Assembly: GCA_035495075.1 (NCBI GenBank)
Contig: DATJGL010000347.1
Location: 1-63,868 of the forward strand
Direction: 5' to 3'
Length of the DNA: 63,868 bases
Source of the DNA: Gemmatimonadales bacterium
GTDB lineage: Bacteria; Gemmatimonadota; Gemmatimonadetes; Gemmatimonadales; GWC2-71-9
A program made the position numbers and the translations under genes. The notes under the pieces were generated by a model. The model ran no database searches, was not told the origin of the DNA, and saw nothing but the letters and a program-made list of their open reading frames with translations. Every line of letters begins with the position of its first letter. Position 1 is the first letter of the stretch. Below, in pieces: positions 49,082-61,586 of the stretch.

Positions 49082-49090
49082 CGGAGGGGC

Positions 49091-49447: not shown

Positions 49448-50083
49448 ATGATCCAGCAAGTCACCCCGCGCCCGCGATTCGAGTGGGTAGGCGGGCGCAG
49501 TTGTCTCGACTTCACGAACACCGTGGCCTGGCCACGGGGCGAGCAGGCCAACGAGCGGCTGGCCAACTACGGCGATCTGCTGGAATGGGCTTACGCGACC
49601 GCGATCCTCGACGCTGCGACAGTCCGCCGGCTCCGCCGGGCGGCGCGCGCGGCTCCGGCTGCGGCTCAGGGCACTCTTCAGAACGCCCGCGCGCTGCGAG
49701 AAGCGATTTACCAGGTGTTCGTGGCCCGCGTCGAGGGCCACGACGCAGAGCCGGGCGCCGCGATGATGCTCAACCGGTTTCTCGGTCAGGCGTTGGGGCG
49801 GCTCCGCCTCCAGGTCGAGGGCGATGGCTGCTCGTGGATGTTTACCGATGAGGGCGACGAGCTGGACCGCATGCTCTGGCCGGTCGCGTGGTCAGCCGCC
49901 AGTCTGCTCACCTCGGACGATCTACGGCTGGTCCGCCGCTGTGCGGCCGACCGGTGCGGGTGGCTCTTCCTGGATCACAGCCGGAATCGGTCCCGCCGCT
50001 GGTGCACGATGAAATCGTGCGGGAACAGTGCAAAGGCGCGCCGACATTACGCCCGCACCCGCCGTCTCAAGAAGGCAGGCTAG
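49448..50083 (+). CDS. ABATE/CGNR zinc-finger domain protein (putative regulator)
   Basis: The C-terminus CAADRCGWLFLDHSRNRSRRWCTMKSCGNSAKARRHY is the CGNR zinc-finger signature. Confidence 0.8.
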   Translation: MIQQVTPRPRFEWVGGRSCLDFTNTVAWPRGEQANERLANYGDLLEWAYATAILDAATVRRLRRAARAAPAAAQGTLQNARALREAIYQVFVARVEGHDAEPGAAMMLNRFLGQALGRLRLQVEGDGCSWMFTDEGDELDRMLWPVAWSAASLLTSDDLRLVRRCAADRCGWLFLDHSRNRSRRWCTMKSCGNSAKARRHYARTRRLKKAG

Positions 50084-51210
50084 AGCAACCGCCTGGTCGC
50101 CGCCCGGAAACGACCCGGATCGAGCAGCTTCGCCGCCGAGCTGCCAGGCACCGCCATCCTCCCATCCGACCCCATCACCAGCTTGATCACATCCACGTTC
50201 CGGCCGTACCAGCGTGTGCTGGGCTCGAGGTCGGACGGGTAGACGAAGCCGGGCAGCGACGCGACGGCGAGATCGGCCTGGCTGCCGATGCCAGATTCGG
50301 GCATCGTGCCTGCCCAAAGCAGAGCACCATAGGTCATGCCTGCGCTGTACACTCGCACAGCCTCGGTCAGCCCTCCCACGCGGTGCACTTTCAGGTTCCA
50401 CACCTTCGGGCCTTCGAGCTCGATGACCTGTCTGGCCCAACCCGCGTCGTGCAGCGTCTCGTCGAGACAGACCGGCGTCCGCAGTATCCGGCCGAGCCGA
50501 GCGTGGCCGACCAACTCTTCGGGACCGAGTGGCTGCTCGAGGTAGAGCAGGCCCAGATCGTCGAGTTGCCGAAGGTTCCTCTCGTGCTCAGGCCACTCAT
50601 ACGCGCCGTTCGCATCGGCAGTGAGCGGAACGTCCGTCCCCGCGAGGACGTCGCGTGCCGCTTTGGTCGGAACGGCGTCCCAACCAGGCGCCACCTTGAT
50701 TTTTACTCGACGGTATCCCTCGCGGAGTGCCTCTTCCACCGAACGCGCTAGCGACGCCGGCCGGCGATCCTCCGGAATGCCGAGAGCGATACCGCACGGG
50801 ATCGACGTAGCGGCAGTGACACCGAGTCGCTCGGCCACGAGCGCTGCCAAACCGGTGCGCCGCCGGTCTGCTTCCAGGTCCCACGCCGCGGTCTCGAGGC
50901 CGGCGCGGGCAAACCGATTGCCCCGGATTCCGGGGAGGAGCACAGCGTCGATGTCTTCCGGTCGCTCGAAGACGCGGCCCACCACCCGGGGAAGCAGGAC
51001 CCGCTCGAGCAGATCTCGCACGCTCGCCACCGTCTCACCCGAGTAAAACGGAAGCTCGAACGGCGCCGATTCGCCGTACCCCGTGTGTCCTTCTCCGTCG
51101 TGGAGCACGACGATCAGAGACCGGCGCTCGCGCATCACGCCGCCGGAGATCGCGAACGGCTCTTTGAGAGGCAGCGTCAGCTCGTGAAGTTCGGCGGACT
51201 CGATTTTCAT
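50080..51210 (-). CDS. Enolase-superfamily enzyme (o-succinylbenzoate synthase / N-acylamino-acid racemase / dipeptide epimerase subgroup)
   Basis: 376 aa. The KIKV (KxK), DANGAY, LEQP and CLDE metal/base motifs appear in the canonical order. Confidence 0.75.
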   Translation of the reverse strand: MKIESAELHELTLPLKEPFAISGGVMRERRSLIVVLHDGEGHTGYGESAPFELPFYSGETVASVRDLLERVLLPRVVGRVFERPEDIDAVLLPGIRGNRFARAGLETAAWDLEADRRRTGLAALVAERLGVTAATSIPCGIALGIPEDRRPASLARSVEEALREGYRRVKIKVAPGWDAVPTKAARDVLAGTDVPLTADANGAYEWPEHERNLRQLDDLGLLYLEQPLGPEELVGHARLGRILRTPVCLDETLHDAGWARQVIELEGPKVWNLKVHRVGGLTEAVRVYSAGMTYGALLWAGTMPESGIGSQADLAVASLPGFVYPSDLEPSTRWYGRNVDVIKLVMGSDGRMAVPGSSAAKLLDPGRFRAATRRLL

Positions 51211-51222
51211 CGGCGGCGTTCT

Positions 51223-52377
51223 TCAGGGCTCAGGTGGGGAAGAGGGCACGTCGAGAAAGCGCAGCTCGCCGTCACGGCGATGAATCACGCCCCGCTCCTC
51301 CAGGTCCAACATGGCCGAGATTATTCCGTCCTCGGGGTCGAACACAAGAGCGTGAAGAGCCCGAGCCGTACGAGATCCCGCGGTCGCCGGATATTCGCCG
51401 AGCGGTAGCTGAAAGAACGTGTGGAGCTGGCCGCTCTGGCAGCCGCGTCGGGCGTATTCGAGCATCAGGCGACCAGAGCAGATGTTGCCGGTAGCGCTGA
51501 GGCCATTCGGTCCGGAGCCGCGTGCGTTCATGGCATCGAGCACCCGGAGATTCCGATCGCTCAAGTCCCACCCGCCGTACGCGACCCGACGCTCGGAGTC
51601 GAAGAGGCGATTGAAGACCGTTACCCCATCCGCTTCGTGCGCTGCGGCCAGCATCTGGAGCTGGAAGTCGTCGTCGAACCTCGCGTTCATCAACTTGAGC
51701 TGCACCCGCCCGCCATTCGGTGCCGCGGCGCGGATGCGACCGGGCACCTCGGCGACCCAGCGAAGGATCTGACTCCGCTCATCGGCCAGGGGGTCGCCGG
51801 CCAGCGTGGGGGAGAAATCCTTCTCGACCGGGAGCTGACCCTCCCCCCACGCGTCGGCCAATGCAGCGGTGGTGTGAGCATACTCGCCCTCGAGGAATGG
51901 TTCGCCCAATCGCGGCAGATTGTACTTGACCGACGGGACCACCAGCATTCCGTCCTTGCCGGCTCGGGTCAGATCTCGACCGGTTCGGACCAGCGCCAGA
52001 TAGTCGTCGAGCGAGCGGTCCCATCCCCTGCCCTTCCACGTCACAGTCCAGCCGTCGTCCCCATTCAAGCCGGTCCGGTGTTCGACTGTCATGCGGGTCT
52101 CGTGAATGGCCCAGGCGCTCATAGAGCGCTCGCCGGACGCGGCCTCCGCGATGAGCGTTTTGAGAACTACGAATGCCAGGCCCGCCGCACGATCGGCCTC
52201 CAACTGATCGGCGTTGAGCGAGAGCTGGCCGGAGCCTTTGCCGAAGGGGTGCGGGAGCTGGTAGCCGAGATAGCGGGCGGTGAGGTCGATCCGGTAGGTC
52301 TGACGCACGTACTCGGCGAAGTCGCGAGGCAACTCGCCCCGAAAGCGCTCGAAGTCAGTCGAAAGCCGAGCGCGCAC
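51223..52377 (-). CDS. Dihydroorotate-dehydrogenase-like TIM-barrel flavoprotein family member
   Basis: The motifs LPHPFGKGSGQLS, VVLKT and the C-terminal ATGNICSGRLMLEYARRGCQSGQLHT resemble class-1 DHOD/PreA-like folds. The start is uncertain: GTG 52377 overlaps the upstream gene, and the alternative is TTG 52332. Confidence 0.5.
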   Translation of the reverse strand: MRARLSTDFERFRGELPRDFAEYVRQTYRIDLTARYLGYQLPHPFGKGSGQLSLNADQLEADRAAGLAFVVLKTLIAEAASGERSMSAWAIHETRMTVEHRTGLNGDDGWTVTWKGRGWDRSLDDYLALVRTGRDLTRAGKDGMLVVPSVKYNLPRLGEPFLEGEYAHTTAALADAWGEGQLPVEKDFSPTLAGDPLADERSQILRWVAEVPGRIRAAAPNGGRVQLKLMNARFDDDFQLQMLAAAHEADGVTVFNRLFDSERRVAYGGWDLSDRNLRVLDAMNARGSGPNGLSATGNICSGRLMLEYARRGCQSGQLHTFFQLPLGEYPATAGSRTARALHALVFDPEDGIISAMLDLEERGVIHRRDGELRFLDVPSSPPEP

Positions 52378-53272
52378 GACGCACCACCTGCTCGACCTCG
52401 CCCCGCTCCTGAGCCGCGAGCGCCGGCCCCCACGGATCATCGCAGGCATCCCAGTGAATAGCGCCATCGGCGGCCGCCGCCCAGAGCATTCGCCGGACGT
52501 AGCCTTCCATGGGGGCGCGAAAAGTCACCCGGGCAAGCTCGTCGCAGACGGAGGACAGCCGAACAAACCGGGCCCAATCGCTGGTAACGCGGCTTCGGAT
52601 CAGCTCCGCTTGGAGGTCAGGCAGGGCGGCGCCCATGCCGATCAGCGCCGCCTCGGCACCAAGCAGCAGTGAATACCCGAGGAAACGATCCTCGCCGGTA
52701 ATGAGCAACTTCCCGCGCTGCTCTCGGAGGCGGGCGGCGAGGTCCTGAAATGTCATCACCGAATCCAGCGTCGCGACCTTGATGCCCAGGACCGCAGGAA
52801 GCGCAACGAGCTCGGCCACCGTGTCCAGCGGCCACGCAACACCGCCTGCCGCCTCATAGAGATAGAACACGATGACCGGCAGGTGGCTTCCGAGTCGTTG
52901 ATGGTACCCTATCGGGTCCTCGCCGCGCGGGAACGCCAGCACCGCGTCGGCGCCGAGATCCCGCGCTTCTGCTGCGCTGGCCTCATCCCAAGCGCCCGCC
53001 ACGAGGATTCGATCGCCGAGACCTGCGCGCCAGGCACTCAGCACACGCCTGCGGTCGTCCGGCGCGAGGTGGCGCCCGCGGCCCGTGTGCACGCTTACGG
53101 CCACGCCGGCCACCGGGTGCCGGGCCATCCATACGACGTAGCCCGCCAACGCCGCTTCGTCGAGGCGACCGTTGCTCCACGGCACCGGGACCGCGGGCAC
53201 CAGCCTTCCGCGGAGACGAGCCACGAGATCGCTCACCCTGCTGCCCAAGCGGGCCTCGTTAGGCCGTGCCAC
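52355..53272 (-). CDS. DapA/N-acetylneuraminate-lyase family aldolase-like protein (divergent)
   Basis: The GTG 53272 start is chosen. The motifs LVPAVPVPW...GRLDEAAL and the candidate Schiff-base Lys in LGIKVATLD are present. The usual GTTGE motif is replaced by HTGRG. Confidence 0.55.
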   Translation of the reverse strand: MARPNEARLGSRVSDLVARLRGRLVPAVPVPWSNGRLDEAALAGYVVWMARHPVAGVAVSVHTGRGRHLAPDDRRRVLSAWRAGLGDRILVAGAWDEASAAEARDLGADAVLAFPRGEDPIGYHQRLGSHLPVIVFYLYEAAGGVAWPLDTVAELVALPAVLGIKVATLDSVMTFQDLAARLREQRGKLLITGEDRFLGYSLLLGAEAALIGMGAALPDLQAELIRSRVTSDWARFVRLSSVCDELARVTFRAPMEGYVRRMLWAAAADGAIHWDACDDPWGPALAAQERGEVEQVVRRARSAFD

Positions 53273-53588
53273 GATGATGTTCCCGCAGGAAGCGTTGCTC
53301 TTCGATGATGATCTTGAGCGGCACACCGACGTCCAGTTGGAGCGCGACCTCGCGGCCTCCGATTCGGACCACCGATCCCTTGACCTCGACCGTCTCGTTG
53401 CGCCGAAAGCGAATCGTTCCCGCCACCGCGTCGCCCTGTTTGAGCAAGAGACTGTCGTCGGTCTTGAAGCGGACCCCACCCTCCGAAACGTCGATCACCT
53501 CGAACGTGCGGCTGCCAATAGAGATCTGGGGACGTGTGGCGACAGGATACTGGATTCGAGTATGCCGACGCTCATTCGAGTAGTTCAT
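53259..53588 (-). CDS. Stand-alone PilZ domain protein (c-di-GMP receptor)
   Basis: 109 aa. RRHTR (RxxxR) is followed 25 residues later by DVSEGG (DxSxxG). The ATG overlaps the upstream stop (ATGA), and the 3' end overlaps the next gene by 14 nt. Confidence 0.8.
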   Translation of the reverse strand: MNYSNERRHTRIQYPVATRPQISIGSRTFEVIDVSEGGVRFKTDDSLLLKQGDAVAGTIRFRRNETVEVKGSVVRIGGREVALQLDVGVPLKIIIEEQRFLREHHRGTA

Positions 53589-54358
53589 CGGGCCGCCGCG
53601 CGCTCGGCATTCCCCTGCTCGATCCGGGCGCGGTCCTGCGCGCCCAGGTCCAGCAGATCGAGCTTCGCAACGCTCGCCTCGGGCAACCGGAGCGGTTGAC
53701 CGGTACCGAATACAAATCGATCTGTGCCCATTGTCGCGAGGAGAGTCGCCAGATCGTCTTCCGGCGGTCCCCAGAGCCAGCAGAGATCCCACCAGATCCT
53801 CTCCGCTTCCGTCGGAGTGGACCCGAAGTGAACCTCTTCGACGAAGCCGCGATGCGCGTGGGTCACGAGGAGCCGAGCCGTCGAATGAGAGCGGATCAAG
53901 GCACGCACAGCCGCGGCGGGGAGCTCGGGGGCGCGGTCGTGGAAATGCCGCTGGCGCCCATCCTCGAGGCGGACAGCCAGCAGCAGAAGCTTGCCCGCAT
54001 CGCCACACGCCGCAACCAGGTTGCGCATCACCCGGCCGGCGGGATCGAGGCCGTAGAACGTGGGATCGCAGCGCACGCCGGGCGTACCGGCGGAGATGGC
54101 GTCATCGAGTAGGCGTTCCCAGCCGGAAAGGCCGGGATGGACCGCGGGGATCGGCTGGAGCCTGGGATGGCGGCGGGCCGTCTCGTAGAGCCAGGCGTTG
54201 CCGTCCGCTGGGTCCCTCCAGAAGAATCCGGGAAGATGAGTGGCCCAGCCTCGGTCAATGCCGACTCGATCCATTGACGCAACCACGGCTTCGGGCGATG
54301 TGCCCGGCACCCGGCGAAACGGGTATGCACCGAGGAATAGGTTGACGTCGATCCGCAT
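53585..54358 (-). CDS. Amidohydrolase_2-type metal-dependent TIM-barrel hydrolase
   Basis: It starts MRIDVNLFLGAYPF. A THAH motif lies mid-protein and FGTGQPL near the C-terminus. It is coupled on both sides (TGATG and ATGA). Confidence 0.65.
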   Translation of the reverse strand: MRIDVNLFLGAYPFRRVPGTSPEAVVASMDRVGIDRGWATHLPGFFWRDPADGNAWLYETARRHPRLQPIPAVHPGLSGWERLLDDAISAGTPGVRCDPTFYGLDPAGRVMRNLVAACGDAGKLLLLAVRLEDGRQRHFHDRAPELPAAAVRALIRSHSTARLLVTHAHRGFVEEVHFGSTPTEAERIWWDLCWLWGPPEDDLATLLATMGTDRFVFGTGQPLRLPEASVAKLDLLDLGAQDRARIEQGNAERAAAR

Positions 54359-55158
54359 CAGCCGGCGGGGAACGCGCCCGGGGGAAAGATCGCGGCTGCA
54401 TTCCGCCAGCCAATGCGGGCGACATCGTCGGCGCCGAGCAGATGCTGCAGATAGCCGAGCTTGGCCCAGCCGGTATCGATCGTCAGGTCGCAACCCCAGA
54501 GGAGTCGGCCGACCCCTACACCATCGAGACAGGCCTCGAGCATTCCCCCATCTACCCCGCTACCCGAGAGATCCACGAAGATGTTGGGGAGGTCGCGCAC
54601 GGCGTGCAGTGAGTGAATCCAGTCACCGCCGCCGCCGATGTGCGCCAGAATGAAGCTCACCCGGGGATGCCGCACGGCCAATCGCCCCAGCTCGACGGCA
54701 TCCGACGCTTCCTGACCGGGTACATCGCCTCGGCGGTGCTGCCAGATGTGATGCAGAATCGGGACGCCAAGCTCTCCTGCCAGGGCGGCCACGCAATCCA
54801 CCAGCGGATCGTCCGCTCGGCGGCTCGCGGCGAGCTTGATACCGATCATGCCCGCTGCGATCCCGGTCCGGACCTCACGTTCCGCGTGCGCCGAGTAGTT
54901 CGGGTTGACTGCGACGTACCCGCGGATCCGCTCAGGGTGCGCTCGCTGAAGCTCTCGCAGGGCGCTGTTTGCGTGGGTGAGATCTGCCGGAGACGGGAAA
55001 TAGGTCGGAGAGGTCAGGCCCCACGTGCCGAGAATGGACGCTACGTGAATCGTGATGCCCACCCGCTCGCCGGCCCGGAGCCGGCTCGCGTTCCGCTCGC
55101 GCCAGTCGGGGCGGGCCGACCGCTCGGTGTAGAAGTGGGCATGAACGTCGATCAGCAT
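54358..55158 (-). CDS. Amidohydrolase_2-type metal-dependent TIM-barrel hydrolase (paralogous fold)
   Basis: It starts MLIDVHAHFY. The ILAHIGGG and LWGCD motifs (H-x-H ... H ... D ligands) are present. Confidence 0.7.
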   Translation of the reverse strand: MLIDVHAHFYTERSARPDWRERNASRLRAGERVGITIHVASILGTWGLTSPTYFPSPADLTHANSALRELQRAHPERIRGYVAVNPNYSAHAEREVRTGIAAGMIGIKLAASRRADDPLVDCVAALAGELGVPILHHIWQHRRGDVPGQEASDAVELGRLAVRHPRVSFILAHIGGGGDWIHSLHAVRDLPNIFVDLSGSGVDGGMLEACLDGVGVGRLLWGCDLTIDTGWAKLGYLQHLLGADDVARIGWRNAAAIFPPGAFPAG

Positions 55159-55172
55159 GGCCGGAAGATAGG

Positions 55173-56339
55173 TCAACTTTTCAGTCCGGCTACAACCTCC
55201 TCGAGCACACCCAGTGCCTGGTCTATGGAGGCTTCCGTGTGCGCGAGCGAGACGAAGTTGTACGCCGAGCGTTTGAACAGCAGGCCCCGATCGGCGGCAC
55301 CCCGGGCAACGGCACGGGAGATAGCGTCGCCGGCGAATTGGAGAAAACACATCTGGGGCACACCGCCCACACCGATCAGCAAGCTCGGATAACGGGTCTC
55401 CAGGGCCTTGAATCCTTGCAGTAGGCGCGTCCCGGTTGCTCGGAGCCGGGTCGGTACCTGTTCGCGTTGCACGACGTCGAGCGTCGCGCGCGCCGCGGCC
55501 AGCGAAACGAGTTCCGTGGCGAGAGTGGACGAGATCCAGGTGCGGCTCACGCCGGCCATGACATCCTGCCGCCCCCCCACCAGCGCGAGAGGGAATCCGT
55601 TGGCGATCGCCTTGCCCAGTACCACGAGATCGGGGCGGAGGCCGTAACGTTGGGTGCCCCCACCCAGCTCGAGCCTGCAGGCTGTCTTGATCTCGTCGAC
55701 GATCAGCAGCGCGCCGACGCGCTCGGTCTCACGTCGGAGGACACCGAGCCACTCGGGATCCGGCTCGTGGACCACGATCGGCTCGGTGATGACGCAGGCG
55801 AGCCGGTCGCCGACTGCGGCGATGGTCCGCCGCGTTCCATCCACGTCGTTGAACGGCAGCTCGGCGAACAATGCGCGGGTGCTGGTGGGAACTCCCGCGC
55901 TACCCTCGCACCAGTCGAGCCATCCGTGATAGCCGCAGCCCAGCACCAGATCACGCCCAGTGGCCACGCGGGCGAGCCGCACGGCGGCAGCGCAGGCTTC
56001 CGCACCGGATTTGAGAAAGCGCAGCTGCTCGATCCAGGGCATGAGTCGCCGGAAATCGGCGGCAAGCTCCTCCTCGAGCACGGGCGCAAGCGGCCCCACC
56101 ACGCCGGCCTCTATGGCAGCAATGGCGGCGCGGGCCACCGACGGGTGACCATAGCCGAGCGCGACCGCCCCCAGTGCCATGACCAGGTCGAGATACTCGC
56201 GTCCGTTCGCGTCCCATACCCTCGAGCCTTCAGCCCGGACCATGCGGCCCGGTGGCAGCCAGCTGCCATCGGTGCCGAAAAGAGCCTCCGGCCGTTTGCT
56301 CCGGGTCGAGGTGAAGCCCGCAACGGGACTACCGCTCAC
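55173..56339 (-). CDS. Class-III PLP aminotransferase (glutamate-1-semialdehyde aminomutase-like)
   Basis: The GTG start forms GTGA with the upstream stop. The motifs LKSGAEACAAAVRLAR, GYHGW, DEIKT and the PLP-lysine motif VLGKAIANGFP are present. Confidence 0.75.
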   Translation of the reverse strand: MSGSPVAGFTSTRSKRPEALFGTDGSWLPPGRMVRAEGSRVWDANGREYLDLVMALGAVALGYGHPSVARAAIAAIEAGVVGPLAPVLEEELAADFRRLMPWIEQLRFLKSGAEACAAAVRLARVATGRDLVLGCGYHGWLDWCEGSAGVPTSTRALFAELPFNDVDGTRRTIAAVGDRLACVITEPIVVHEPDPEWLGVLRRETERVGALLIVDEIKTACRLELGGGTQRYGLRPDLVVLGKAIANGFPLALVGGRQDVMAGVSRTWISSTLATELVSLAAARATLDVVQREQVPTRLRATGTRLLQGFKALETRYPSLLIGVGGVPQMCFLQFAGDAISRAVARGAADRGLLFKRSAYNFVSLAHTEASIDQALGVLEEVVAGLKS

Positions 56340-59089
56340 GCGAGCTCGAGCTCCCCGAAGCGGTCCGGAGCCTGACGGTCGCCCCGCAACCACACCCAGC
56401 CACTTCCTCCACTCCAAACCAGCTGACCCGATCGCCGCTCGCGGTCCGGCAACATCTCGTTGACCAGCAGATCGAATCCGATGCGATCGCCATAGGTCCG
56501 GGACTCCCAACCGGGCAAGCGTAGCGCCAGGGTCACGCTGTAGCCGACGTCGCCCGGCGCCCACGCACCGCTGATCATGGCCGGATTGCCGGCGTATCCG
56601 GCAGGCACCTGGACTCGGAGCAGCTGGCCGTCAGGCTCCGGCACGATCAAAAACCCGTATACCTCAGCATCCGGCTCGAGACGGACGTACACCTGGAGTC
56701 CGTCCGAGTGAATGTCGTCCGGCTCGTTGTCGAGCAGCAGCGGCGGCACGTCCGCCGCACGCAGTGCGATGTCGGGCTTGGTGACCTCCACCGCAAGATA
56801 GAGCGCCTCGTCATCCCAGTTTGCATAGGCCAGGGCCGAGAAATCCTCCGGACCGGAATAGGGCTCTTCGCTGCGTCGGTACTGATCCTCATGATCGAGA
56901 GCCAGCGGCGCCGAGGTGTCGAATCCATCGAGCGTGGCGTCAAGCGCAGGGGGAGCGTCCGGCCGGAGAGCTGTCCCGGTCTGCCGGAGAGGCGGCTCAC
57001 GGTTGATCAGCGGCTCGAAGATCCGCGACTCCGGCCTCCGTCCACCGAGGCGAACGATCTCGCCGGTCGCGGTCGCGATCTCCCAGCCGTCAACCACGGA
57101 GTGATGACGATCGGTTTCACCGGCGATGCTTACTGCAATCGCCTCACCCTCGACTCGGATCTCAGCGGGAGTCGGCGCGAGCACCGAGACGAATCGGGAG
57201 GCCCGTCCCTCTCCTTGAAACAACAGGAATGGGGCGTCACCGGTACCCGGTGCACCAGGTGCGGTAGCGCGGACCAATTCGGCGGCCCCGCGTGAGCTCA
57301 AGACCATGGTCTGCCCGCCCCCATCCACCGTCGCCGCGGCGGTCAGCTGCTCGCTCCCGACCACGCAATGCTCTGCTCCCTTCGTGAAGGGACCAGGAGA
57401 TGCGGCCTGTTTCCACGGGCCCGGCGCGCGAACATCCAGCCGACCCGTGAGATGCCAGGGAAGCTCGAGCCGGTGCTCCATATCCCCCGAAAACTCAACG
57501 ACGTCTAGGAGGTAACGTGGCCCCGAGACGACGCTGCGGGTGATCCCGCCGAATCGAGCGCGGACCCAGGCCCACGAGCCTTTCGCCTCGAAGTATTCAC
57601 ACACGGCGTCGCCGGCCCGCTGGGACATAGCGTCGAGCTGGGGCGCGTTATGGGCGAGCGTCGACCGATACCAGAACAGATCGCGCGAGACGTAGCTGCC
57701 GGTGCCGAAGTCGGGCAGCCAGTAGACTCCTCGCTCGTGCAGGGTGAGGTTCAGGCGATCCGGATGGCCATGGCCACCGCCATAGGTGCCGCCCTCCACG
57801 CTTGCGTAGCGACCTCCAGCGCGCAGCACGGCGAGGCCCTGACTCTGAAACAGTGTGCTGCCAGGCTGCCAACGGGAGGCGTCGCCGTCGAATGAAGGCG
57901 CCATCCCGAGCAGCATCCACCAGGAAAGGTCGGCACGCCCACGCCGAGCCGGCGCCGATTCGCCGGCTTCGTGGAGATAGGAGTCGAACAGCTCCGCCGG
58001 CGGGGCGGGTACAGCGTAGAGCCCGGCGAGCCAGTCCGCGATGCCCTGGTGTTCCTCCCCGTCCGTACCGCGCGCAAGCTCCCCGCCCCGTTCCCAGAGC
58101 TCGAGGTACATCGGCTGAGCCAGAGACACGCCGAAGCGGGAGTCCTTGCGAGCGGGAAAGGTTCGATCAGGGAGTGCCGTCAGCGCGGGGGCCCGGAGCG
58201 CCGACTCGAGCCGCCGAGCGAGTTGTGATTCTTCCAGAGGATCTACGCCCACCGAGCGAACCCAATCGAGGCCGATGAGCAGACCGCGCAACGCGAAGAG
58301 GTGGTAGTTCTCGCCCTCGGACCACATGCCGTCAGCGCCGAACCCCTGGATCAGATGGGCCACGAGTCCGCTTGGGCCTTCGACCGAGCGGCGCAACAGC
58401 TCTTCATCCTCGAACCAGACCGCGAGGGCCGCCAGCGCCGCGTTGTGCCAGGTCTGGCGGTTGGAGAGGCCCTCGTCGAACTCCCCGATCAGATTCGCGG
58501 CCTCCTCCCCCAGGCCCGCAACGGCATTCGCCGTGGCGGGATCGAGCTGATCGCTTTCCCGAAGCAGCACGGCCGCCGCCAGGTAATTGGTCAGCCAGAT
58601 CGATTCGAGATAAGTCGAAAAGAAGAGCCGGCTCGGACCGAGGACGTTGTCCCGATTCAGGTACTCGAAGTAGTGCTCGCCGTAGTAAGTCAGAAGCCGA
58701 GACGCGCCGGCCGCAGCCGAGCGGTCACCGGCCAGAGCCGCGACCGCAGCGAGGTGAGCGGCCCGCTCGGCCAGCCAGAGGTGCTGAAAGCGGGCCCACC
58801 ACCGGTCGTGCCTCTCGCCTCTCTGCATCGCGCGACACCGCGGGCACGTGTGTGCCGTGGGGCTCCATGGGTCGAATTGAAGATGGCTAGCGTCCTTGGG
58901 ACAGACGCCGCCGTCCATTGAGAGCAAGGCTTTGGCTGTTGGAATCGGGGGCGCCTGATCGAGCACCGGCCGGGCCCGTTCCAATTGCCGGGCGAGCAGA
59001 GCAGACAAGTCGGGCGACGCCGCGATGACCTCCCGCCGGCCCGCCAGCGACTCCGCGGTCACCACGTGCGAACGCCCTCCCATGACCAT
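56336..59089 (-). CDS. Heparinase II/III-like protein with C-terminal CBM9/DOMON-like domain, no signal peptide
   Basis: It has an alpha/alpha toroid-like N-terminal half and a GGHGHPDRLN...YRSTLAHN motif. The C-terminus ANWDDEALYLAVEVTKPD...DGLQVYV is typical of CBM9-like modules. The start is ATG 59089 or GTG 59062 (GTGA with the upstream stop). Confidence 0.65.
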   Translation of the reverse strand: MVMGGRSHVVTAESLAGRREVIAASPDLSALLARQLERARPVLDQAPPIPTAKALLSMDGGVCPKDASHLQFDPWSPTAHTCPRCRAMQRGERHDRWWARFQHLWLAERAAHLAAVAALAGDRSAAAGASRLLTYYGEHYFEYLNRDNVLGPSRLFFSTYLESIWLTNYLAAAVLLRESDQLDPATANAVAGLGEEAANLIGEFDEGLSNRQTWHNAALAALAVWFEDEELLRRSVEGPSGLVAHLIQGFGADGMWSEGENYHLFALRGLLIGLDWVRSVGVDPLEESQLARRLESALRAPALTALPDRTFPARKDSRFGVSLAQPMYLELWERGGELARGTDGEEHQGIADWLAGLYAVPAPPAELFDSYLHEAGESAPARRGRADLSWWMLLGMAPSFDGDASRWQPGSTLFQSQGLAVLRAGGRYASVEGGTYGGGHGHPDRLNLTLHERGVYWLPDFGTGSYVSRDLFWYRSTLAHNAPQLDAMSQRAGDAVCEYFEAKGSWAWVRARFGGITRSVVSGPRYLLDVVEFSGDMEHRLELPWHLTGRLDVRAPGPWKQAASPGPFTKGAEHCVVGSEQLTAAATVDGGGQTMVLSSRGAAELVRATAPGAPGTGDAPFLLFQGEGRASRFVSVLAPTPAEIRVEGEAIAVSIAGETDRHHSVVDGWEIATATGEIVRLGGRRPESRIFEPLINREPPLRQTGTALRPDAPPALDATLDGFDTSAPLALDHEDQYRRSEEPYSGPEDFSALAYANWDDEALYLAVEVTKPDIALRAADVPPLLLDNEPDDIHSDGLQVYVRLEPDAEVYGFLIVPEPDGQLLRVQVPAGYAGNPAMISGAWAPGDVGYSVTLALRLPGWESRTYGDRIGFDLLVNEMLPDRERRSGQLVWSGGSGWVWLRGDRQAPDRFGELELA

Positions 59090-60054
59090 TCGACCGGCAG
59101 GAGGTGGGCGCCCGCCTCGACCGCAGCACGCCGGGCCGCAGCGACGTCGTCGCCGGCAAGGAAAAACATGCAGCCTCCGGCCCCCGAGCCGGCGGCTTTC
59201 CCTCCCAGTGCTCCGGCGGTGCGAAGTGAGGCTTCGAGCGCCGCCATGACCGGCGTGCACATGGCGGCATCGAGCTCCTGCTGCCGCTGCCAGTTCTCGG
59301 CCATCAACGATCCGATCCGCGGAAGGTCCTCCAGGCGAAGCGCCTCTTCCATCTCTTCGGCGACACAGCGGAGCCGCTGGAGCGCTGCCACGATGCCGCG
59401 CTCCCCGCGCTCGTACCCCTGCATCACGCGCGCGATTGTATTCCCGGAGAAATGCGACGCGCCGGTGTAGCACAGGATGGTGCGCCGCGCGAGCTCGGCG
59501 GCGAATGCGTCGGAAAGGCGCAGCGTGGCAACACGAGCCTCGGGATCGCGAAAACGGAGGACGCTGAAACCACCGAAAGCAGCCGAGAACTGATCCTGCC
59601 GGCCGCCCCGGATTCTTGCCTCGTCGGCCTCGAGACGGCAGGCGACGTCAGCGATCTCTCGAATGGTCGGAGAGGTGTTGTTCGCAGCGGCCAGCGCAGC
59701 GACCAGCGCGACGTCGATCGCTCCGGAGCTGCCCAGGCCCGAGCCTGCCGGTGCTTCCGAATGGGTGCGCAGGGTGAGGGGACCGGATGGCGGGAAGAGG
59801 CGGAGCGCCGCGCGAAGCAGCGGAAGCCCGCAGTCTCGAACCAGGTCGTCGTGGTGCTTCAACTCCACGACCTGATTGAGGTCGTCGGCCACGAGCCGGA
59901 GACAATCTCCTCCCGGGATCACCTCGGCCTCGGCGGACAAGCGAATCGAGGCTGCGACCACCATCCCGCCCTCTCGGATCGAGAACGGTGGCACGTCAGT
60001 CCAACCGCCCGCGAAGTCGAGCCGCACCGGAGCCGTCGCACGTGCCCGCCGCAT
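59059..60054 (-). CDS. GHMP-family sugar kinase
   Basis: It starts MRRARATAPVRLDFAGGWTDVPP. GHMP motif II is EAPAGSGLGSSGA and motif III is GGKAAGSGAGG. The ATG overlaps the upstream stop (TGATG). Confidence 0.8.
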   Translation of the reverse strand: MRRARATAPVRLDFAGGWTDVPPFSIREGGMVVAASIRLSAEAEVIPGGDCLRLVADDLNQVVELKHHDDLVRDCGLPLLRAALRLFPPSGPLTLRTHSEAPAGSGLGSSGAIDVALVAALAAANNTSPTIREIADVACRLEADEARIRGGRQDQFSAAFGGFSVLRFRDPEARVATLRLSDAFAAELARRTILCYTGASHFSGNTIARVMQGYERGERGIVAALQRLRCVAEEMEEALRLEDLPRIGSLMAENWQRQQELDAAMCTPVMAALEASLRTAGALGGKAAGSGAGGCMFFLAGDDVAAARRAAVEAGAHLLPVEWSWEGVRTW

Positions 60055-61586
60055 CAAGGCGATGCCCACCAGTCGTGCACCGTCACCAGCTCTCCCCGGA
60101 GATCCATGTGCACCCCGTGCACCCGCCGGTTCATACCCTGGACACCGCGCGCATGATAAAGGAAGGCTACAGGCATCGAGTCGGCGAACAACCGTAAGGC
60201 TGCTTCGGTATCGCGTGGTGCCGCAATGCCCGTCAGGGCCGCGAGCGGGCCAAGATACCCGAGACCGATATCGCCCGGAATCCCGAGCACCGCGGCATCG
60301 AAATCGTGGCTCGGACCATACAGGCGATCGAGAAATGCGGACAGCTCGAGTTGACGCAGCGTCACCTGAAAGCCGGCTCGCGCCAGCTGCGCCTGGATCA
60401 TCTGCTCGAGAACGCCGTCGCCGCTGCCGACCGAAAGCAGCTCGAAAGGAATGGGCTCACGGGGCGGGGGCGAAACCAGTGGGGAGCGGACCGCAGACGA
60501 GGCCGGGTGAGCGGCCTCTCCCGTGCCGGGGTTTTCCGACGGCCCGCGACTGCTCGTACCGGCACCCGCGCGCTCTCGCCTGCTCTCCGCGGGGACGGCC
60601 TGTTTCGGCCCGTTCGCCCCCGCCGAGGCCATCATCGGCCCGGTCGCCGGGGTCCCGAATCCGTACACGTACCCGTCTACCAGCTCCCGCCGGTTCAAGG
60701 CGGCCGAGACGGCGAGCCTTCGGTCCAGCCGGTCAAAAGGCGGTCGGCGGGTGTTGAAGACCAGCCCGTAGGTGAAGAGCAGCGGGTAGTCGAGCACGTC
60801 CAGACCCGAGTCGCGCCGCACGTACGCGGCGTGAGCAGGTTGAATCCCGGCAAAGTCGAGCTCGCCGGCCACCAGGGCTGCCAGCTTCGTGACCGGCTCA
60901 TCCACCACCGCGAGCACCAGGCGTTCGAGGCGTGGCGGGCCCCCCAATTCCGAAGGGAAATCCGGGTTCGCGGCAAAGACCCAGCGCCGATTGGGATCGT
61001 GTCGCACGAACCGAAACGGCCCGTTGCCGACCGGACGCTGGTTCCACTCGGCCCGCCGCAGTGCATCGAGCGGCACCGAGTCGAGCAAGTGGGCCGGCAG
61101 TATCGCGAGGTCGGTGAGCACATCCGGGAAGCGGTGCTGCTCCACGCTGAAGTCCAGGATGACCGTCGAGTCGTCCGGCGCACTGACCGCCTCGACATCG
61201 GCCAGCTCTGACTGCCGCGGATACCCGACCCGGGGATCACGCGCCGCGTCGAGTGTCCACTGGACATCCCGCGACGTGGTGGGGGCGCCGTCGTGCCAGC
61301 GCAGGGTGGTTACCAGCGCAAACGTGAGGCGCCGCCGATCGTCCGACCAGGTCCAACTCCGGGCAAGATAGGGCCGCGCTTCCAACGCACTGTCATAGCG
61401 GGCGAGCGTAGTGAGCAGGACGTAGCGCTGCACTTGTCGGGCAAGCGGATGGGTCGTCAGCAGCGGATTGATGCTCTGAAGGTCGGCGCCGGAGGCGTAC
61501 AGAACGGTTGCGCCGCGATCGGGCGCCGGATTGCACGCGCCCAACGCGGCCGCCAACCCCAGGCCCCAGGAGAGTCGTCGGATCAC
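60054..61586 (-). CDS. ABC transporter substrate-binding lipoprotein, family 5 (peptide/opine/nickel type)
   Basis: GTG start with the lipobox AALGAC. It has a family-5 SBP pattern (GNGPFRF, DVLDYP). An insert of about 60 aa of low complexity is present. Confidence 0.75.
   Translation of the reverse strand: MIRRLSWGLGLAAALGACNPAPDRGATVLYASGADLQSINPLLTTHPLARQVQRYVLLTTLARYDSALEARPYLARSWTWSDDRRRLTFALVTTLRWHDGAPTTSRDVQWTLDAARDPRVGYPRQSELADVEAVSAPDDSTVILDFSVEQHRFPDVLTDLAILPAHLLDSVPLDALRRAEWNQRPVGNGPFRFVRHDPNRRWVFAANPDFPSELGGPPRLERLVLAVVDEPVTKLAALVAGELDFAGIQPAHAAYVRRDSGLDVLDYPLLFTYGLVFNTRRPPFDRLDRRLAVSAALNRRELVDGYVYGFGTPATGPMMASAGANGPKQAVPAESRRERAGAGTSSRGPSENPGTGEAAHPASSAVRSPLVSPPPREPIPFELLSVGSGDGVLEQMIQAQLARAGFQVTLRQLELSAFLDRLYGPSHDFDAAVLGIPGDIGLGYLGPLAALTGIAAPRDTEAALRLFADSMPVAFLYHARGVQGMNRRVHGVHMDLRGELVTVHDWWASP

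What the first reader, a model, noticed from the sequence alone, without database searches (positions are those of the whole stretch)
50080..61586. Ten-gene, 11.5-kb translationally coupled operon of unassigned pathway
**Minus-strand gene order.**
1. Family-5 SBP lipoprotein.
2. GHMP sugar kinase.
3. Cytoplasmic heparinase II/III-like protein with a CBM9-like domain.
4. Class-III aminotransferase.
5. Amidohydrolase_2.
6. Amidohydrolase_2.
7. PilZ protein.
8. DapA/NAL-family aldolase-like protein.
9. DHOD-like flavoprotein.
10. Enolase-superfamily racemase, epimerase or OSBS-like enzyme.

**Junctions, in the same order.** They are TGATG, GTGA (or a 31-nt overlap), GTGA, a 14-nt gap, TGATG, ATGA, a 14-nt overlap, an approximately 23-nt overlap (or a 22-nt gap if TTG 52332 is the start), and a 12-nt gap. 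This implies strict co-expression.

**Why it is unusual.** The combination of kinase, lyase-like protein, transaminase, two decarboxylase/hydrolase-type TIM barrels, aldolase, flavin reductase and racemase does not match any pathway I can name. It could be catabolism of an imported glycopeptide or amino-sugar-acid. It could also be synthesis of a modified sugar.
Basis: partly seen in the sequence, partly recalled or inferred. Interest (0 to 1): 0.7.

Follow-up and report, generated by a model that had tools for sequence, protein, structure and literature searches.

The report
Conserved Gemmatimonadota sugar-acid uptake operon
This is a real, tightly packed ten-gene operon found in hundreds of soil Gemmatimonadota genomes; it most likely imports and breaks down an acidic, mannose-containing sugar compound with an enzyme set that matches no described pathway, so its chemistry is still unknown.

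Summary
All ten minus-strand genes, their families and every junction are as described. One sigma-70-like promoter lies upstream and none lies inside.

The window is a contig of a Gemmatimonadales metagenome-assembled genome. The cluster is conserved but modular:
- DppCB | SBP-GHMP-Hep-AT3 is present in every related locus that has room for it.
- AH2a-AH2b is present in about 87% of loci.
- DapA-DHOD-enolase is present in about 80%.
- PilZ is present in only 17%.
- A cytoplasmic GH38 mannosidase gene is nearly always nearby.

The deeper core is GH38, an aminotransferase, the AH2 pair and the lyase-like protein. It persists in Gemmatimonadaceae, where the lyase-like protein is 35-39% identical, and in a low-GC lineage.

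The "heparinase" is structurally a PL17-type exo-oligouronate lyase. It keeps the catalytic Tyr, Asn and Zn ligands, but the catalytic His is replaced by Arg. It also has an N-terminal Cys/His motif and a C-terminal CBM9 fold.

The unannotated protein is a DHOD/DPD-fold protein with FMN-type motifs. AH2b is a degenerate paralogue of AH2a. The enolase is an NSAR/OSBS-subfamily member with all catalytic residues.

Best reading (about 0.45): uptake and cytoplasmic catabolism of a uronate- and mannose-containing oligosaccharide through a non-canonical downstream route. No published description was found.

The parts
61593..61622 (-). Sigma-70-like promoter candidate for the operon (TTCACA-18-TAGAAT)
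   Evidence: It is the only minus-strand promoter-like match in 48700-62000, 7 nt upstream of the SBP start. This is a consensus match only.
60054..61586 (-). Family-5 solute-binding lipoprotein (510 aa, lipobox LGAC)
   Evidence: Pfam SBP_bac_5, 201.8 bits. No NCBIfam equivalog is reached; the best are Opp4A/NikA/GsiB at 60-77 bits. Present in 62 of 62 related loci with room.
59059..60054 (-). GHMP kinase of the HddA/WcbL/fucokinase type, that is, the anomeric sugar-1-kinase branch (331 aa)
   Evidence: Pfam GHMP N and C domains. NCBIfam HddA scores 121 bits against a cut-off of 600. Best PDB matches are 4n3o, 4usk and 3k85, E about 1e-31. The GSGLGSS ATP motif starts at residue 104. Present in 74 of 74 Gemmatimonadales loci. 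In Gemmatimonadaceae it is absent from the operon or relocated.
56336..59065 (-). Cytoplasmic PL17-like (heparinase II/III superfamily) lyase-like protein with an N-terminal Cys/His motif and a C-terminal CBM9-fold domain (about 908 aa)
   Evidence: Pfam Hepar_II_III_C scores 40.9 bits; CBM9_1 scores 22.7, just under its cut-off. AF2 model pLDDT 75.6. Foldseek top hits are Alg17c and other PL17 enzymes (TM 0.67), then PL15 and PL12; the C-terminal domain matches CBM9 (TM 0.76). In the profile alignment to Alg17c, N201, Y258, H413, H415, D433, Y450 and H464 are conserved and H202 is replaced by Arg. C54, H71, C73 and C76 are invariant.
55173..56339 (-). Class-III (omega-type, GSA-aminomutase-like) PLP aminotransferase (388 aa)
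   Evidence: Pfam Aminotran_3, 137.9 bits. NCBIfam HemL-type models score about 200 bits, below their cut-offs of 398-527; GntE scores 201 bits. The putative PLP lysine lies in VLGKAI, motif starting at residue 240. Present in 63 of 63 loci.
54358..55158 (-). AH2a: metal-dependent Amidohydrolase_2 TIM barrel (266 aa)
   Evidence: Pfam, 71.5 bits. H6, H8, H137, H173 and D224 are invariant. Weak profile match to ACMSD-type decarboxylases, E 2e-6. Present in 48 of 55 loci.
53585..54358 (-). AH2b: degenerate paralogue of AH2a that lacks the HxH and Asp metal ligands (257 aa)
   Evidence: Pfam scores 28.1 against a cut-off of 26.4. hhalign to AH2a gives E 6e-5 over 213 columns, with 'DVN.F' in place of 'DVHAH'. 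No PDB sequence relative was found. It always co-occurs with AH2a, and the junction is 30 nt or less in 97% of loci.
53259..53588 (-). Single-domain PilZ protein (109 aa) with RxxxR and DxSxxG motifs; an accessory insertion
   Evidence: Pfam PilZ, 40 bits. Motifs at residues 7 and 33. Present in only 9 of 52 related loci.
52355..53272 (-). Divergent DHDPS/NAL-family class-I aldolase-like protein (305 aa)
   Evidence: Pfam DHDPS, 30.9 bits. Best PDB match is 2rfg at 53 bits. GTTGE is replaced by the invariant HTGRG. Present in 41 of 51 loci.
51223..52377 (-). DHOD/DPD-fold TIM-barrel protein, probably FMN-dependent; annotated 'hypothetical' everywhere (384 aa)
   Evidence: No Pfam hit and no PDB sequence hit. 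AF2 pLDDT 86, pTM 0.88. Foldseek matches DPD and DHODH, E 1e-12, TM about 0.6, 13-18% identity. Present in 40 of 50 loci.
50080..51210 (-). Enolase-superfamily enzyme of the NSAR/OSBS subfamily (376 aa)
   Evidence: TIGR01928 scores 208.6 against a cut-off of 200.65. Best PDB match is 3mwc (296 bits), then N-acylamino acid racemases (about 230 bits). K170-x-K172, D199, E225, D250, K274 and R277 have the spacing of AmyNSAR K161/K163, D189, E214, D239, K263 and R266 (the roles of K161, K163, K263 and R266 are from PMC12006748; the D189/E214/D239 ligand numbering is recalled from the literature). Present in 37 of 46 loci.
61640..63485 (+). Divergently transcribed DppB- and DppC-type ABC permeases (61640-62611 and 62604-63485); no ATPase genes are adjacent
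   Evidence: Pfam BPD_transp_1 and NCBIfam Opp/Nik-type permeases. Present in 55 of 55 and 50 of 50 related loci. ATPase genes follow AH2b in L083; none are in the window.
46138..48768 (-). Cytoplasmic GH38 alpha-mannosidase-family protein (876 aa); a separate transcription unit but a conserved neighbour of the system
   Evidence: Four GH38 Pfam domains. The closest NCBIfam model is mannosylglycerate hydrolase, 325 bits against a cut-off of 1138. No signal peptide. It lies next to the cluster, upstream or downstream, in 45 of 81 loci, in all six Gemmatimonadaceae-type loci examined, and in the low-GC locus L086.

Best explanation
The locus is an uptake-and-catabolism (or salvage) system for an acidic oligosaccharide or glycoconjugate that contains a uronic acid and alpha-linked mannose.

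**Proposed steps.**
1. The lipoprotein SBP and the DppB/C-type permeases bring the compound into the cytoplasm. The ATPases are encoded elsewhere.
2. A PL17-like exolyase removes a uronate residue by beta-elimination. Its CBM9-fold domain may hold the reducing end of the oligosaccharide.
3. The neighbouring cytoplasmic GH38 removes alpha-mannose.
4. The HddA-like GHMP kinase phosphorylates a released manno-configured sugar or a keto-deoxy acid.
5. The ring-opened 4-deoxy-5-keto-uronate, or an amino group already on the substrate, is handled by the omega-type aminotransferase.
6. The AH2a/AH2b pair acts next. AH2a is a metal-dependent subunit of the decarboxylase/hydratase/hydrolase type, and AH2b is a degenerate partner.
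7. In this lineage three further enzymes finish the carbon skeleton. A Schiff-base aldolase releases pyruvate. An FMN enzyme of the DHOD type reduces or oxidises a C-C bond next to a carboxylate. An NSAR-type enzyme inverts a carbon alpha to a carboxylate.
8. PilZ, where present, would add a c-di-GMP input.

**What is shown.** Gene content, coupling, conservation and modularity, folds, and retained catalytic residues.

**What is inferred.** The substrate class, the order of steps and every individual reaction.
For: - An ABC importer is attached in every locus, and the SBP is translationally coupled to the first enzyme gene.
- The Hep-like protein has the PL17 fold and keeps 7 of 8 mapped Alg17c catalytic or Zn residues. 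PL17 and PL15 enzymes are exolytic oligouronate lyases that produce 4,5-unsaturated monouronates. These then go through a reductase, a kinase and an aldolase (PMC8778563). This operon carries a kinase, an aldolase-like protein and a reductase-like protein from non-orthologous families.
- GH38 without a signal peptide is linked to the cluster across the whole phylum and in a low-GC lineage.
- A GHMP kinase and a DHDPS-family gene recur next to GH38 in a different arrangement in L083 and L166. This argues for a functional rather than accidental link.
- Catalytic residues are retained in AH2a, the DapA-like protein, the enolase, AT3, GHMP and the DHOD-like protein.
- No canonical KduI/KduD/KdgK/Eda genes were seen among the roughly 47 ORFs of the window that were scanned.
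Against: - No substrate is known and no enzyme was assayed.
- The catalytic His202 of Alg17c is Arg here, so lyase activity is not assured.
- The NCBIfam oligoalginate-lyase score is 27 against a cut-off of 1400.
- Family-5 SBPs and Dpp-type permeases most often carry peptides.
- The NSAR/OSBS subfamily is known for N-acylamino acids and OSBS, not for sugars.
- An aminotransferase has no role in any described uronate pathway.
- In the low-GC relative L086 the core sits beside polysaccharide-synthesis glycosyltransferases and has no transporter within 18 kb.
Confidence: 0.45

Rival explanations
1. The system catabolises or salvages a peptide-derived or N-acylated amino-acid compound, such as a glycopeptide, a cell-wall peptide fragment or a D-amino-acid conjugate. 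The Dpp-type importer takes it up. AH2a opens or removes an amide. The NSAR-type enzyme racemises the N-acyl amino acid. The DHOD-like enzyme acts on a cyclic N-acyl amino acid, as DHOD does on dihydroorotate. The aminotransferase and the DapA-like enzyme finish the amino-acid skeleton. The lyase-like protein and GH38 only strip off the glycan.
For: - The SBP is family 5 and the permeases are Opp/Dpp/Nik-type.
- The enolase is an NSAR/OSBS-subfamily member with K-x-K, K and R277, equivalent to R266.
- An M19 dipeptidase lies downstream of GH38 here and in several loci. M20 and S9 peptidases lie nearby in L083 and L166.
- Established biochemistry: dihydroorotase (amidohydrolase superfamily) followed by DHOD is a known pairing on a cyclic N-carbamoyl amino acid. 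Class-III transaminase, DapA and an N-succinyl intermediate recall the succinylase branch of the DAP pathway.
Against: - The deep conserved core (GH38, lyase-like protein, aminotransferase, AH2 pair) lacks the racemase, the DHOD-like protein and the DapA-like protein. These are lineage-specific.
- No succinyl- or acetyl-transferase or desuccinylase lies in the operon.
- Two large carbohydrate-active proteins and a sugar-type GHMP kinase are the most constant enzymes.
Confidence: 0.2
2. The system remodels, recycles or helps to build the organism's own surface polysaccharide. The lyase-like protein trims or epimerises a uronate-containing precursor. The aminotransferase makes or removes an amino sugar. 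The importer recovers released fragments. PilZ ties the system to c-di-GMP control of exopolysaccharide.
For: - In L086 the core (GH38, DegT-type sugar aminotransferase, two AH2 genes, a Gfo/Idh/MocA oxidoreductase and the Hep-like protein) lies directly next to GT26/GT4 glycosyltransferases, an acyltransferase_3 and a radical-SAM gene.
- A canonical PilZ is embedded in the operon in some lineages.
- The HddA-type kinases make sugar-1-phosphates for nucleotide-sugar synthesis (family knowledge).
- The family is almost confined to one phylum.
Against: - No glycosyltransferase, nucleotidyltransferase, flippase or polymerase lies in or near any of the roughly 90 Gemmatimonadota loci examined.
- Every such locus has an importer.
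- PilZ is absent from 83% of loci.
Confidence: 0.2
3. The ten genes do not form one pathway. They are two or three independent modules placed side by side: a transport/kinase/lyase/transaminase module, an AH2 pair, and a DapA/DHOD/enolase module. In this reading the enolase is simply the cell's OSBS (MenC) for menaquinone synthesis.
For: - Presence is modular: 100%, about 87% and about 80%.
- The AT3>AH2a gap has a median of 227 nt in relatives.
- Some lineages run from AT3 straight into unrelated genes for PQQ or molybdopterin oxidoreductases.
- The enolase passes the OSBS-named model TIGR01928.
- Some NSAR/OSBS genes outside men operons are still the cell's OSBS (PMC12006748).
Against: - The modules keep the same order and strand in most of about 80 species-level genomes at only 53-82% identity.
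- In this window they are fused by overlapping stop and start codons, with a single upstream promoter-like site.
- GHMP- and DHDPS-family genes re-associate with GH38 and the core in other arrangements.
- There are no men genes in the window.
Confidence: 0.15

Closest known systems
PL17 exo-oligoalginate lyases (Alg17c of Saccharophagus degradans; PDB 4nei, 4ojz) and the PL15 cytoplasmic exolyase Atu3025
   Same: - Two-domain (alpha/alpha) toroid plus beta-sheet fold (Foldseek TM 0.67 and 0.56).
- Conserved Asn201, Tyr258, His413, Tyr450 and the Zn ligands His415, Asp433 and His464.
- Like Atu3025, it is intracellular and would act on imported oligomers.
   Different: - About 16% identity, and the NCBIfam score is far below the cut-off (27 against 1400).
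- His202 is replaced by an invariant Arg.
- It has an extra N-terminal Cys/His (zinc-ribbon-like) segment and an extra C-terminal CBM9-fold domain.
- Its genomic partners are a transaminase and an AH2 pair, not KdgF, DEH reductase, KdgK and Eda.
Canonical uronate catabolism: lyase, then KdgF, then DEH reductase or KduI/KduD, then KdgK, then Eda (PMC8778563)
   Same: The overall logic is the same: import oligomers, release an unsaturated monouronate with an exolyase, then apply a reduction, a phosphorylation and an aldol cleavage that gives pyruvate. The operon has a reductase-like, a kinase-like and an aldolase-like protein.
   Different: - Every downstream enzyme comes from a different superfamily. 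The kinase is GHMP rather than PfkB. The aldolase is DHDPS/NAL class I rather than Eda. The reductase is a DHOD-fold flavoprotein rather than an SDR.
- The transaminase, the AH2 heteropair and the NSAR-type enzyme have no counterpart in the canonical route.
NSAR/OSBS subfamily of the enolase superfamily (Amycolatopsis NSAR, Deinococcus and Thermus NAAAR, 3mwc)
   Same: The enolase passes TIGR01928. It scores 230-296 bits against PDB members. It has the full catalytic set, including the second-shell Arg.
   Different: Its genome context is neither a menaquinone operon nor the succinyltransferase/desuccinylase D-to-L amino-acid conversion operon. It sits with carbohydrate-active genes.
Dihydroorotate and dihydropyrimidine dehydrogenases (FMN TIM barrels)
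   Same: The fold matches (TM about 0.6). The C-terminal FMN-phosphate motifs and the Asn of strand 6 align.
   Different: - 13-18% identity, with no Pfam or PDB sequence hit.
- It has extra insertions, is 384 aa long and has no partner electron-transfer subunit in the operon.
- The catalytic loop reads KDFSPT rather than N-x-S-(S/C)-P-N.
ACMSD-type decarboxylases of the Amidohydrolase_2 family
   Same: AH2a keeps HxH, His, His and Asp at the positions of the ACMSD metal and catalytic residues, and gives a weak profile match (E 2e-6).
   Different: - The match covers about 80 residues only.
- AH2a comes with an obligatory degenerate paralogue, AH2b, that lacks the metal ligands.
- Whether it decarboxylates, hydrates or hydrolyses is unknown.

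Membership tests
PL17 / heparinase II-III superfamily lyases | N-terminal (alpha/alpha) toroid plus C-terminal beta-sheet domain | tested here: met
   AF2 model. Foldseek top 10 hits are all PL17, E about 1e-19, TM 0.65-0.67. Pfam Hepar_II_III_C scores 40.9 against a cut-off of 24.
PL17 / heparinase II-III superfamily lyases | Catalytic Tyr258 with Asn201, His413 and Tyr450 (Alg17c numbering) | tested here: met
   Profile alignment to 4nei: the query NYH Tyr aligns with Y258, the N of SNRQ with N201, the first His of GHGHPD with H413, and the Y of G-s-Y with Y450. All are invariant in A1 and A6.
PL17 / heparinase II-III superfamily lyases | Catalytic His202 (Alg17c) | tested here: not met
   It aligns with an invariant Arg (SNRQ) across the whole family, including distant members.
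PL17 / heparinase II-III superfamily lyases | Zn site His415, Asp433, His464 | tested here: met
   These align with the second His of GHGHPD, the D of L-D-D-x-G-T and the H of AHNAP.
PL17 / heparinase II-III superfamily lyases | Sequence-level membership (NCBIfam oligoalginate lyase equivalog) | tested here: not met
   27 bits against a cut-off of 1400. CAZy subfamily assignment was not available with these tools.
PL17 / heparinase II-III superfamily lyases | Beta-elimination of a 4-linked uronate | not testable with these tools
   Needs an enzyme assay.
CBM9 | CBM9 beta-sandwich fold and Pfam CBM9_1 | tested here: inconclusive
   The fold matches 1i82 and 7nwo (TM 0.71-0.76). Pfam scores 22.7, just under the cut-off of 23.4. 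Some orthologues carry a precomputed PF06452 hit. Ligand-binding Trp residues were not mapped.
NSAR/OSBS subfamily (enolase superfamily, MLE subgroup) | Passes the family model; K-x-K, the metal-ligand Asp/Glu/Asp, the second Lys and the second-shell Arg | tested here: met
   TIGR01928 scores 208.6 against 200.65. K170/K172, D199, E225, D250, K274 and R277 have AmyNSAR spacing (roles of the Lys and Arg residues from PMC12006748).
NSAR/OSBS subfamily (enolase superfamily, MLE subgroup) | Context that assigns the biological role: a men operon, or succinyltransferase plus desuccinylase | tested here: not met
   Neither context is present in the window or in related loci.
DHOD/DPD flavoenzymes | TIM-barrel fold of the family | tested here: met
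   Foldseek matches DPD and DHODH, E 1e-12 to 1e-10, probability 1.0.
DHOD/DPD flavoenzymes | FMN-binding motifs and the catalytic Ser/Cys loop | tested here: inconclusive
   hhalign aligns the strand 6-8 motifs with human DHODH, E 0.0016. The catalytic loop was not aligned; 'DFSPT' resembles 'SSPNT' by eye only. There is no Pfam DHO_dh hit.
DHDPS/NAL class-I aldolases | Schiff-base lysine on strand 6 | tested here: met
   K165 is invariant and aligns with K161 of E. coli DapA. Pfam DHDPS scores 30.9 against 22.1.
DHDPS/NAL class-I aldolases | GTTGE motif and the Tyr133/Tyr107 catalytic triad of DHDPS | tested here: not met
   GTTGE is replaced by the invariant HTGRG. The Tyr133 position aligns with Phe, with a neighbouring invariant Tyr139. 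The protein is therefore not a DapA orthologue.
Amidohydrolase_2 (metal-dependent) | HxH, His, His and Asp ligands | tested here: met
   AH2a has H6, H8, H137, H173 and D224, all invariant.
Amidohydrolase_2 (metal-dependent) | The same ligands in AH2b | tested here: not met
   AH2b has D-V-N-x-F in place of HxH and G-T-G-Q in place of G-x-D. Pfam barely passes, at 28.1 against 26.4.
HddA (D-glycero-D-manno-heptose 7-phosphate kinase) | Equivalog score | tested here: not met
   121 bits against a cut-off of 600. It is the closest branch, but this protein is not a member.
HemL (glutamate-1-semialdehyde aminomutase) | Equivalog or subfamily score | tested here: not met
   188-207 bits against cut-offs of 398-637.
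PilZ c-di-GMP receptors | RxxxR and (D/N)xSxxG motifs | tested here: met
   RRHTR starts at residue 7 and DVSEGG at residue 33. Pfam scores 40 against 22.5. Binding was not tested.

The most novel reading that the evidence does not exclude
The deep core (importer, cytoplasmic GH38, an Arg-variant PL17-like lyase with a zinc-ribbon-like N-terminus and a CBM9 clamp, an omega-transaminase, and an active/degenerate Amidohydrolase_2 heteropair) defines an undescribed route. In it, the unsaturated uronate released by the lyase is transaminated at its aldehyde or keto group and then decarboxylated or cyclised, instead of being reduced to KDG. Sugar-acid carbon would thus be turned into an amino-acid-like or N-heterocyclic intermediate. 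In Gemmatimonadales, the DapA-like aldolase, a DHOD-type flavoenzyme and an NSAR-type epimerase would process that intermediate further. The lyase-like protein would also found a new polysaccharide-lyase (sub)family.
Probability: 0.15. Interest if true: 0.75.

Novelty: new variant of a known kind. Interest (0 to 1): 0.5.

Why it matters
- **Ecology.** Gemmatimonadota are among the most abundant soil phyla, yet very few are cultured and their carbon sources are poorly known. This cluster has relatives in at least 575 species-level genomes and thousands of metagenomic relatives. It is therefore probably a major substrate-use trait of the phylum.
- **Annotation gaps.** Two of its proteins are uninformative in current annotation: the DHOD-fold 'hypothetical' protein and the degenerate AH2b.
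- **Possible new enzymology.** Solving the pathway would assign functions to a new lyase subfamily, a new DHOD-like flavoenzyme family and a non-canonical context for NSAR/OSBS enzymes. It could also reveal an alternative fate for unsaturated uronates.
- **If it is ordinary.** If it turns out to be an ordinary oligosaccharide utilisation operon with substituted enzymes, the gain is mainly better annotation.

Tried and rejected
- **PDB sequence searches.** The DHOD-like protein, AH2a and AH2b gave nothing as single sequences. The AH2b profile also gave nothing.
- **Plasmid tblastn.** The Hep-like protein found only remote heparinase-family hits (about 26% identity, half-length). The DHOD-like protein found nothing. 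This gave no annotated context outside the phylum.
- **Genome scan.** The genome-contig scan returned only Gemmatimonadota among its best 80 loci, so it could not show spread to other phyla. The metagenome scan with low-GC representatives gave two informative loci, L085 and L086. The rest were Gemmatimonadota again, or remote heparinase-like genes with no shared neighbours.
- **Rfam.** No riboswitch or other regulatory RNA was found in the window or in three related loci, only tRNAs.
- **Literature.** Six searches found no description of this cluster.
- **Readings considered and rejected.**
  - HemL, HddA, DapA and MngB orthology: all are far below the curated cut-offs.
  - A periplasmic lyase: there is no signal peptide.
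  - PilZ as a core component: it is present in only 17% of loci.
  - The convergent ABATE/CGNR regulator as the conserved regulator: it was seen only in the closest relatives.
- **Specific substrates considered.** Alginate, xanthan side chains, plant GIPC head groups, nonulosonic acids, mannosylglycerate and murein peptides were all considered. None can be singled out with the present evidence.

Full report
**1. Observation**

The window is a 63,868-bp, 66% G+C contig. The Hep-like protein is 100% identical to an NCBI protein from a Gemmatimonadales metagenome-assembled genome whose contig has the same length.

Ten consecutive minus-strand ORFs fill 61586-50080.
- SBP/GHMP: TGATG.
- GHMP/Hep: GTGA with GTG 59062. 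The starts 59065, 59083 and 59089 are also possible. Homologue N-termini favour 59062/59065, and NCBI used 59083.
- Hep/AT3: GTGA.
- AT3 to AH2a: 14-nt gap.
- AH2a/AH2b: TGATG.
- AH2b/PilZ: ATGA.
- PilZ/DapA: 14-nt overlap.
- DapA/DHOD: 23-nt overlap. GTG 52377 is supported by homologues of 380-395 aa that align over 98-100% of the query.
- DHOD to enolase: 12-nt gap.

Pfam and NCBIfam confirm nine of the ten family calls. The ninth protein has no Pfam hit. A single sigma-70-like site (10 of 12 matches) lies 7 nt upstream of the SBP start. No other such site was found on the minus strand in the scanned span. Terminator-like hits do not exceed shuffled controls.

**2. Surroundings**

DppB- and DppC-type permease genes are transcribed divergently (61640-63485). 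No ABC ATPase gene follows them; a BBP2 porin fragment ends the contig.

Downstream, an ABATE/CGNR regulator gene converges on the enolase gene. Then come a signal-peptide-less GH38 (46138-48768, minus strand), which overlaps a PafA-like phosphatase gene by 20 nt, and an M19 dipeptidase.

The rest of the window holds glycogen genes, histidine-utilisation genes, an ECF sigma factor and a PAS-GGDEF-EAL protein. No canonical uronate-catabolic genes were seen.

**3. Conservation**

The Hep-like protein has more than 3,000 database relatives. The best 120 are full-length at 57-82% identity, and the named ones are Gemmatimonadales. A scan of one genome per species found 575 relatives. The best 80 loci are all Gemmatimonadota.

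I ran tblastn with the window's proteins on these loci and counted only loci with enough flanking DNA:

| Gene | Loci with the gene / loci with room |
|---|---|
| DppC | 50/50 |
| DppB | 55/55 |
| SBP | 62/62 |
| GHMP | 74/74 |
| AT3 | 63/63 |
| AH2a | 48/55 |
| AH2b | 47/54 |
| DapA-like | 41/51 |
| DHOD-like | 40/50 |
| Enolase | 37/46 |
| PilZ | 9/52 |

GH38 lies upstream or downstream in 45 of 81 loci, many of which are truncated.

Junction spacing in relatives is tight (30 nt or less in at least 97% of loci) for SBP>GHMP, GHMP>Hep, AH2a>AH2b and DapA>DHOD. The AT3>AH2a gap has a median of 227 nt and often holds a conserved, very acidic small ORF.

Some lineages stop after AT3 and run into unrelated genes.

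More distant family members, at 35-44% identity to the window's protein, are Gemmatimonadaceae. Their operon is GH38 | DppCB | SBP-(GHMP)-Hep-(SpoU methylase)-AT3-AH2a-AH2b. It lacks the DapA/DHOD/enolase module. In L083 and L166 a GHMP kinase and a DHDPS-family gene sit next to GH38 in another arrangement, and L083 also carries DppD/F ATPase genes.

A low-GC relative (L086, about 30% identity) has GH38, a DegT aminotransferase, two AH2 genes, a Gfo/Idh/MocA oxidoreductase and the Hep-like gene. These lie next to glycosyltransferase genes.

The ten genes are therefore a lineage-specific fusion of modules around a deeper core: importer, GH38, lyase-like protein, aminotransferase and AH2 pair.

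**4. The proteins**

*Hep-like protein.*
- The AF2 model (pLDDT 75.6) best matches PL17 oligoalginate lyases (TM 0.65-0.67). PL15, PL12 and PL33-type glycosaminoglycan lyases follow. The C-terminal domain matches CBM9 (TM 0.71-0.76).
- A profile alignment to Alg17c (4nei) shows Asn201, Tyr258, His413, Tyr450 and the Zn ligands His415, Asp433 and His464 conserved. His202 is replaced by an Arg that is invariant across the whole family.
- All members carry an N-terminal motif, C...H-x-C-P-x-C, and none has a signal peptide.

*DHOD-like protein.* It is 'hypothetical' in every source and has no Pfam or PDB sequence match. Its confident model (pLDDT 86) matches DPD and DHODH barrels.

*AH2a and AH2b.* AH2a keeps HxH, His, His and Asp, and weakly resembles ACMSD-type decarboxylases. 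AH2b is a remote paralogue that has lost those ligands. The two genes are always adjacent and overlapping, which suggests a heteromer of an active and a degenerate subunit (inference).

*DapA-like protein.* It keeps the Schiff-base lysine but not the DHDPS signature.

*Enolase.* It passes TIGR01928 and is closest to 3mwc and to N-acylamino-acid racemases. It has K-x-K, Asp/Glu/Asp, Lys and the second-shell Arg with AmyNSAR spacing (PMC12006748).

*GHMP kinase.* It is nearest to the HddA, WcbL and fucokinase anomeric kinases, but is far below the equivalog cut-offs.

*AT3.* It is GSA-aminomutase-like and GntE-like, that is, an omega-type transaminase. It is below all cut-offs.

*PilZ.* It has both c-di-GMP-binding motifs.

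**5. Mechanism**

The constant attachment of an importer, two cytoplasmic carbohydrate-active proteins and a sugar-type kinase point to uptake and intracellular breakdown of an oligosaccharide that contains a uronate and alpha-mannose. This is inference.

In the known route, exolyases give unsaturated monouronates. These open to DEH or DHU and pass through a reductase, a kinase and an aldolase (PMC8778563). This operon has reductase-like, kinase-like and aldolase-like proteins from other superfamilies. It also has a transaminase, an AH2 pair and an NSAR-type enzyme that have no counterpart in that route.

The following ideas are chemically plausible but untested:
- The omega-transaminase acts on the aldehyde of DEH or DHU.
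- The DHOD-type enzyme acts on the O-C(COO-)=C unit of an unsaturated uronate, which is isosteric with the N-C(COO-)=C unit of orotate.
- The NSAR-type enzyme inverts the carbon alpha to the carboxylate.

I put 0.45 on the general model and much less on any single step.

**6. Rivals**

| Rival | Confidence | Summary |
|---|---|---|
| Peptide or N-acyl-amino-acid catabolism | 0.2 | Supported by the Dpp-type transporter, the NSAR-type enzyme, nearby peptidases and the dihydroorotase/DHOD analogy. Weakened because those enzymes are not part of the deep core. |
| Remodelling of the cell's own surface glycan | 0.2 | Supported by L086's glycosyltransferase neighbours and by PilZ. Weakened by the absence of synthesis genes in about 90 Gemmatimonadota loci. 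|
| Independent modules, with the enolase as MenC | 0.15 | Supported by the modularity and the TIGR01928 name. Weakened by conserved order and by re-association of the same families elsewhere. |

**7. Comparison and novelty**

The general kind, an ABC-importer-linked glycan utilisation operon, is well known. The enzyme combination, the Arg-variant PL17-like protein with its extra domains, the unannotated DHOD-fold family and the AH2 heteropair are not described in the literature I could search.

I file it as a new variant of a known kind, with interest 0.5. It is widespread in an abundant, poorly cultured soil phylum, and it may hide new uronate chemistry. Nothing here yet shows a categorically new mechanism.

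Noticed in passing
L001:13974-14177 and at least 20 other related loci; absent from the window (the 14-nt gap at 55159-55172): A conserved, extremely acidic small ORF of about 50-67 aa ('MSSRKPTVDDLDDVDDEDG..EEEISQE.DLTL') lies between the aminotransferase and AH2a genes in many Gemmatimonadales. Its function is unknown.
   Followed up: partly
L082:12735-13490, L084:12780-13574, L165:12760-13485, L167:12750-13496, L069:12918-13667: A SpoU/TrmH-type methyltransferase gene is inserted between the lyase-like and aminotransferase genes in Gemmatimonadaceae and some Gemmatimonadales, usually with overlapping stop and start codons. It could be a passenger RNA methylase or a small-molecule O-methyltransferase.
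   Followed up: no
L047 and L055 (both from isolate MFD08821.bin.2.30): One metagenome-assembled genome carries two complete copies of the cluster on different contigs. Their lyase-like proteins are only 65% identical. These are either diverged paralogous systems, perhaps for two substrates, or a mixed bin.
   Followed up: partly
window 56336-59065, residues about 50-80 of the protein: A Cys/His motif (C54, H71, C73, C76: GG.C...FDP.sP..HRCP.CG) is invariant from Gemmatimonadales to the low-GC relatives. It looks like a zinc ribbon grafted onto a polysaccharide-lyase fold. The AF2 confidence there is low.
   Followed up: partly
L086:90-17755 (metagenome contig, GC 0.49): A distant relative of the core (GH38, a DegT aminotransferase, two AH2 genes, a Gfo/Idh/MocA oxidoreductase and the Hep-like gene) lies next to GT26/GT4 glycosyltransferases, an acyltransferase_3 and a radical-SAM/SPASM gene. 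This is a polysaccharide-synthesis neighbourhood with no transporter.
   Followed up: partly
window 44499-46157 (-) and 42840-44141 (-): A PafA-like alkaline phosphatase/phosphodiesterase gene overlaps the end of the GH38 gene by 20 nt, and an M19 membrane dipeptidase follows. M19 also follows GH38 in several related loci. They may belong to the same substrate-use system.
   Followed up: partly
window 28434-30614 (+): A PAS-PAS-GGDEF-EAL protein, a c-di-GMP turnover enzyme, lies about 23 kb from the PilZ gene embedded in the operon.
   Followed up: no
window 61640-63485 and L083:15511-17261: The window's permease pair has no adjacent ATPase genes. The Gemmatimonadaceae-type locus L083 carries DppD/F-type ATPase genes directly after AH2b, followed by a GntR-family regulator.
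   Followed up: partly
window 1484-8828 (+): A glycogen-type cluster holds an alpha-glucan phosphorylase (DUF3417 type), a GT5 glycogen synthase, a GH57 branching enzyme and a GH57 amylase/4-alpha-glucanotransferase.
   Followed up: no
window 25841-25914, 35207-35278, 35300-35381 (all -): Three tRNA genes. The first lies inside the longest-ORF extension of a DUF885 gene, so that gene's true start must be downstream of the tRNA.
   Followed up: no
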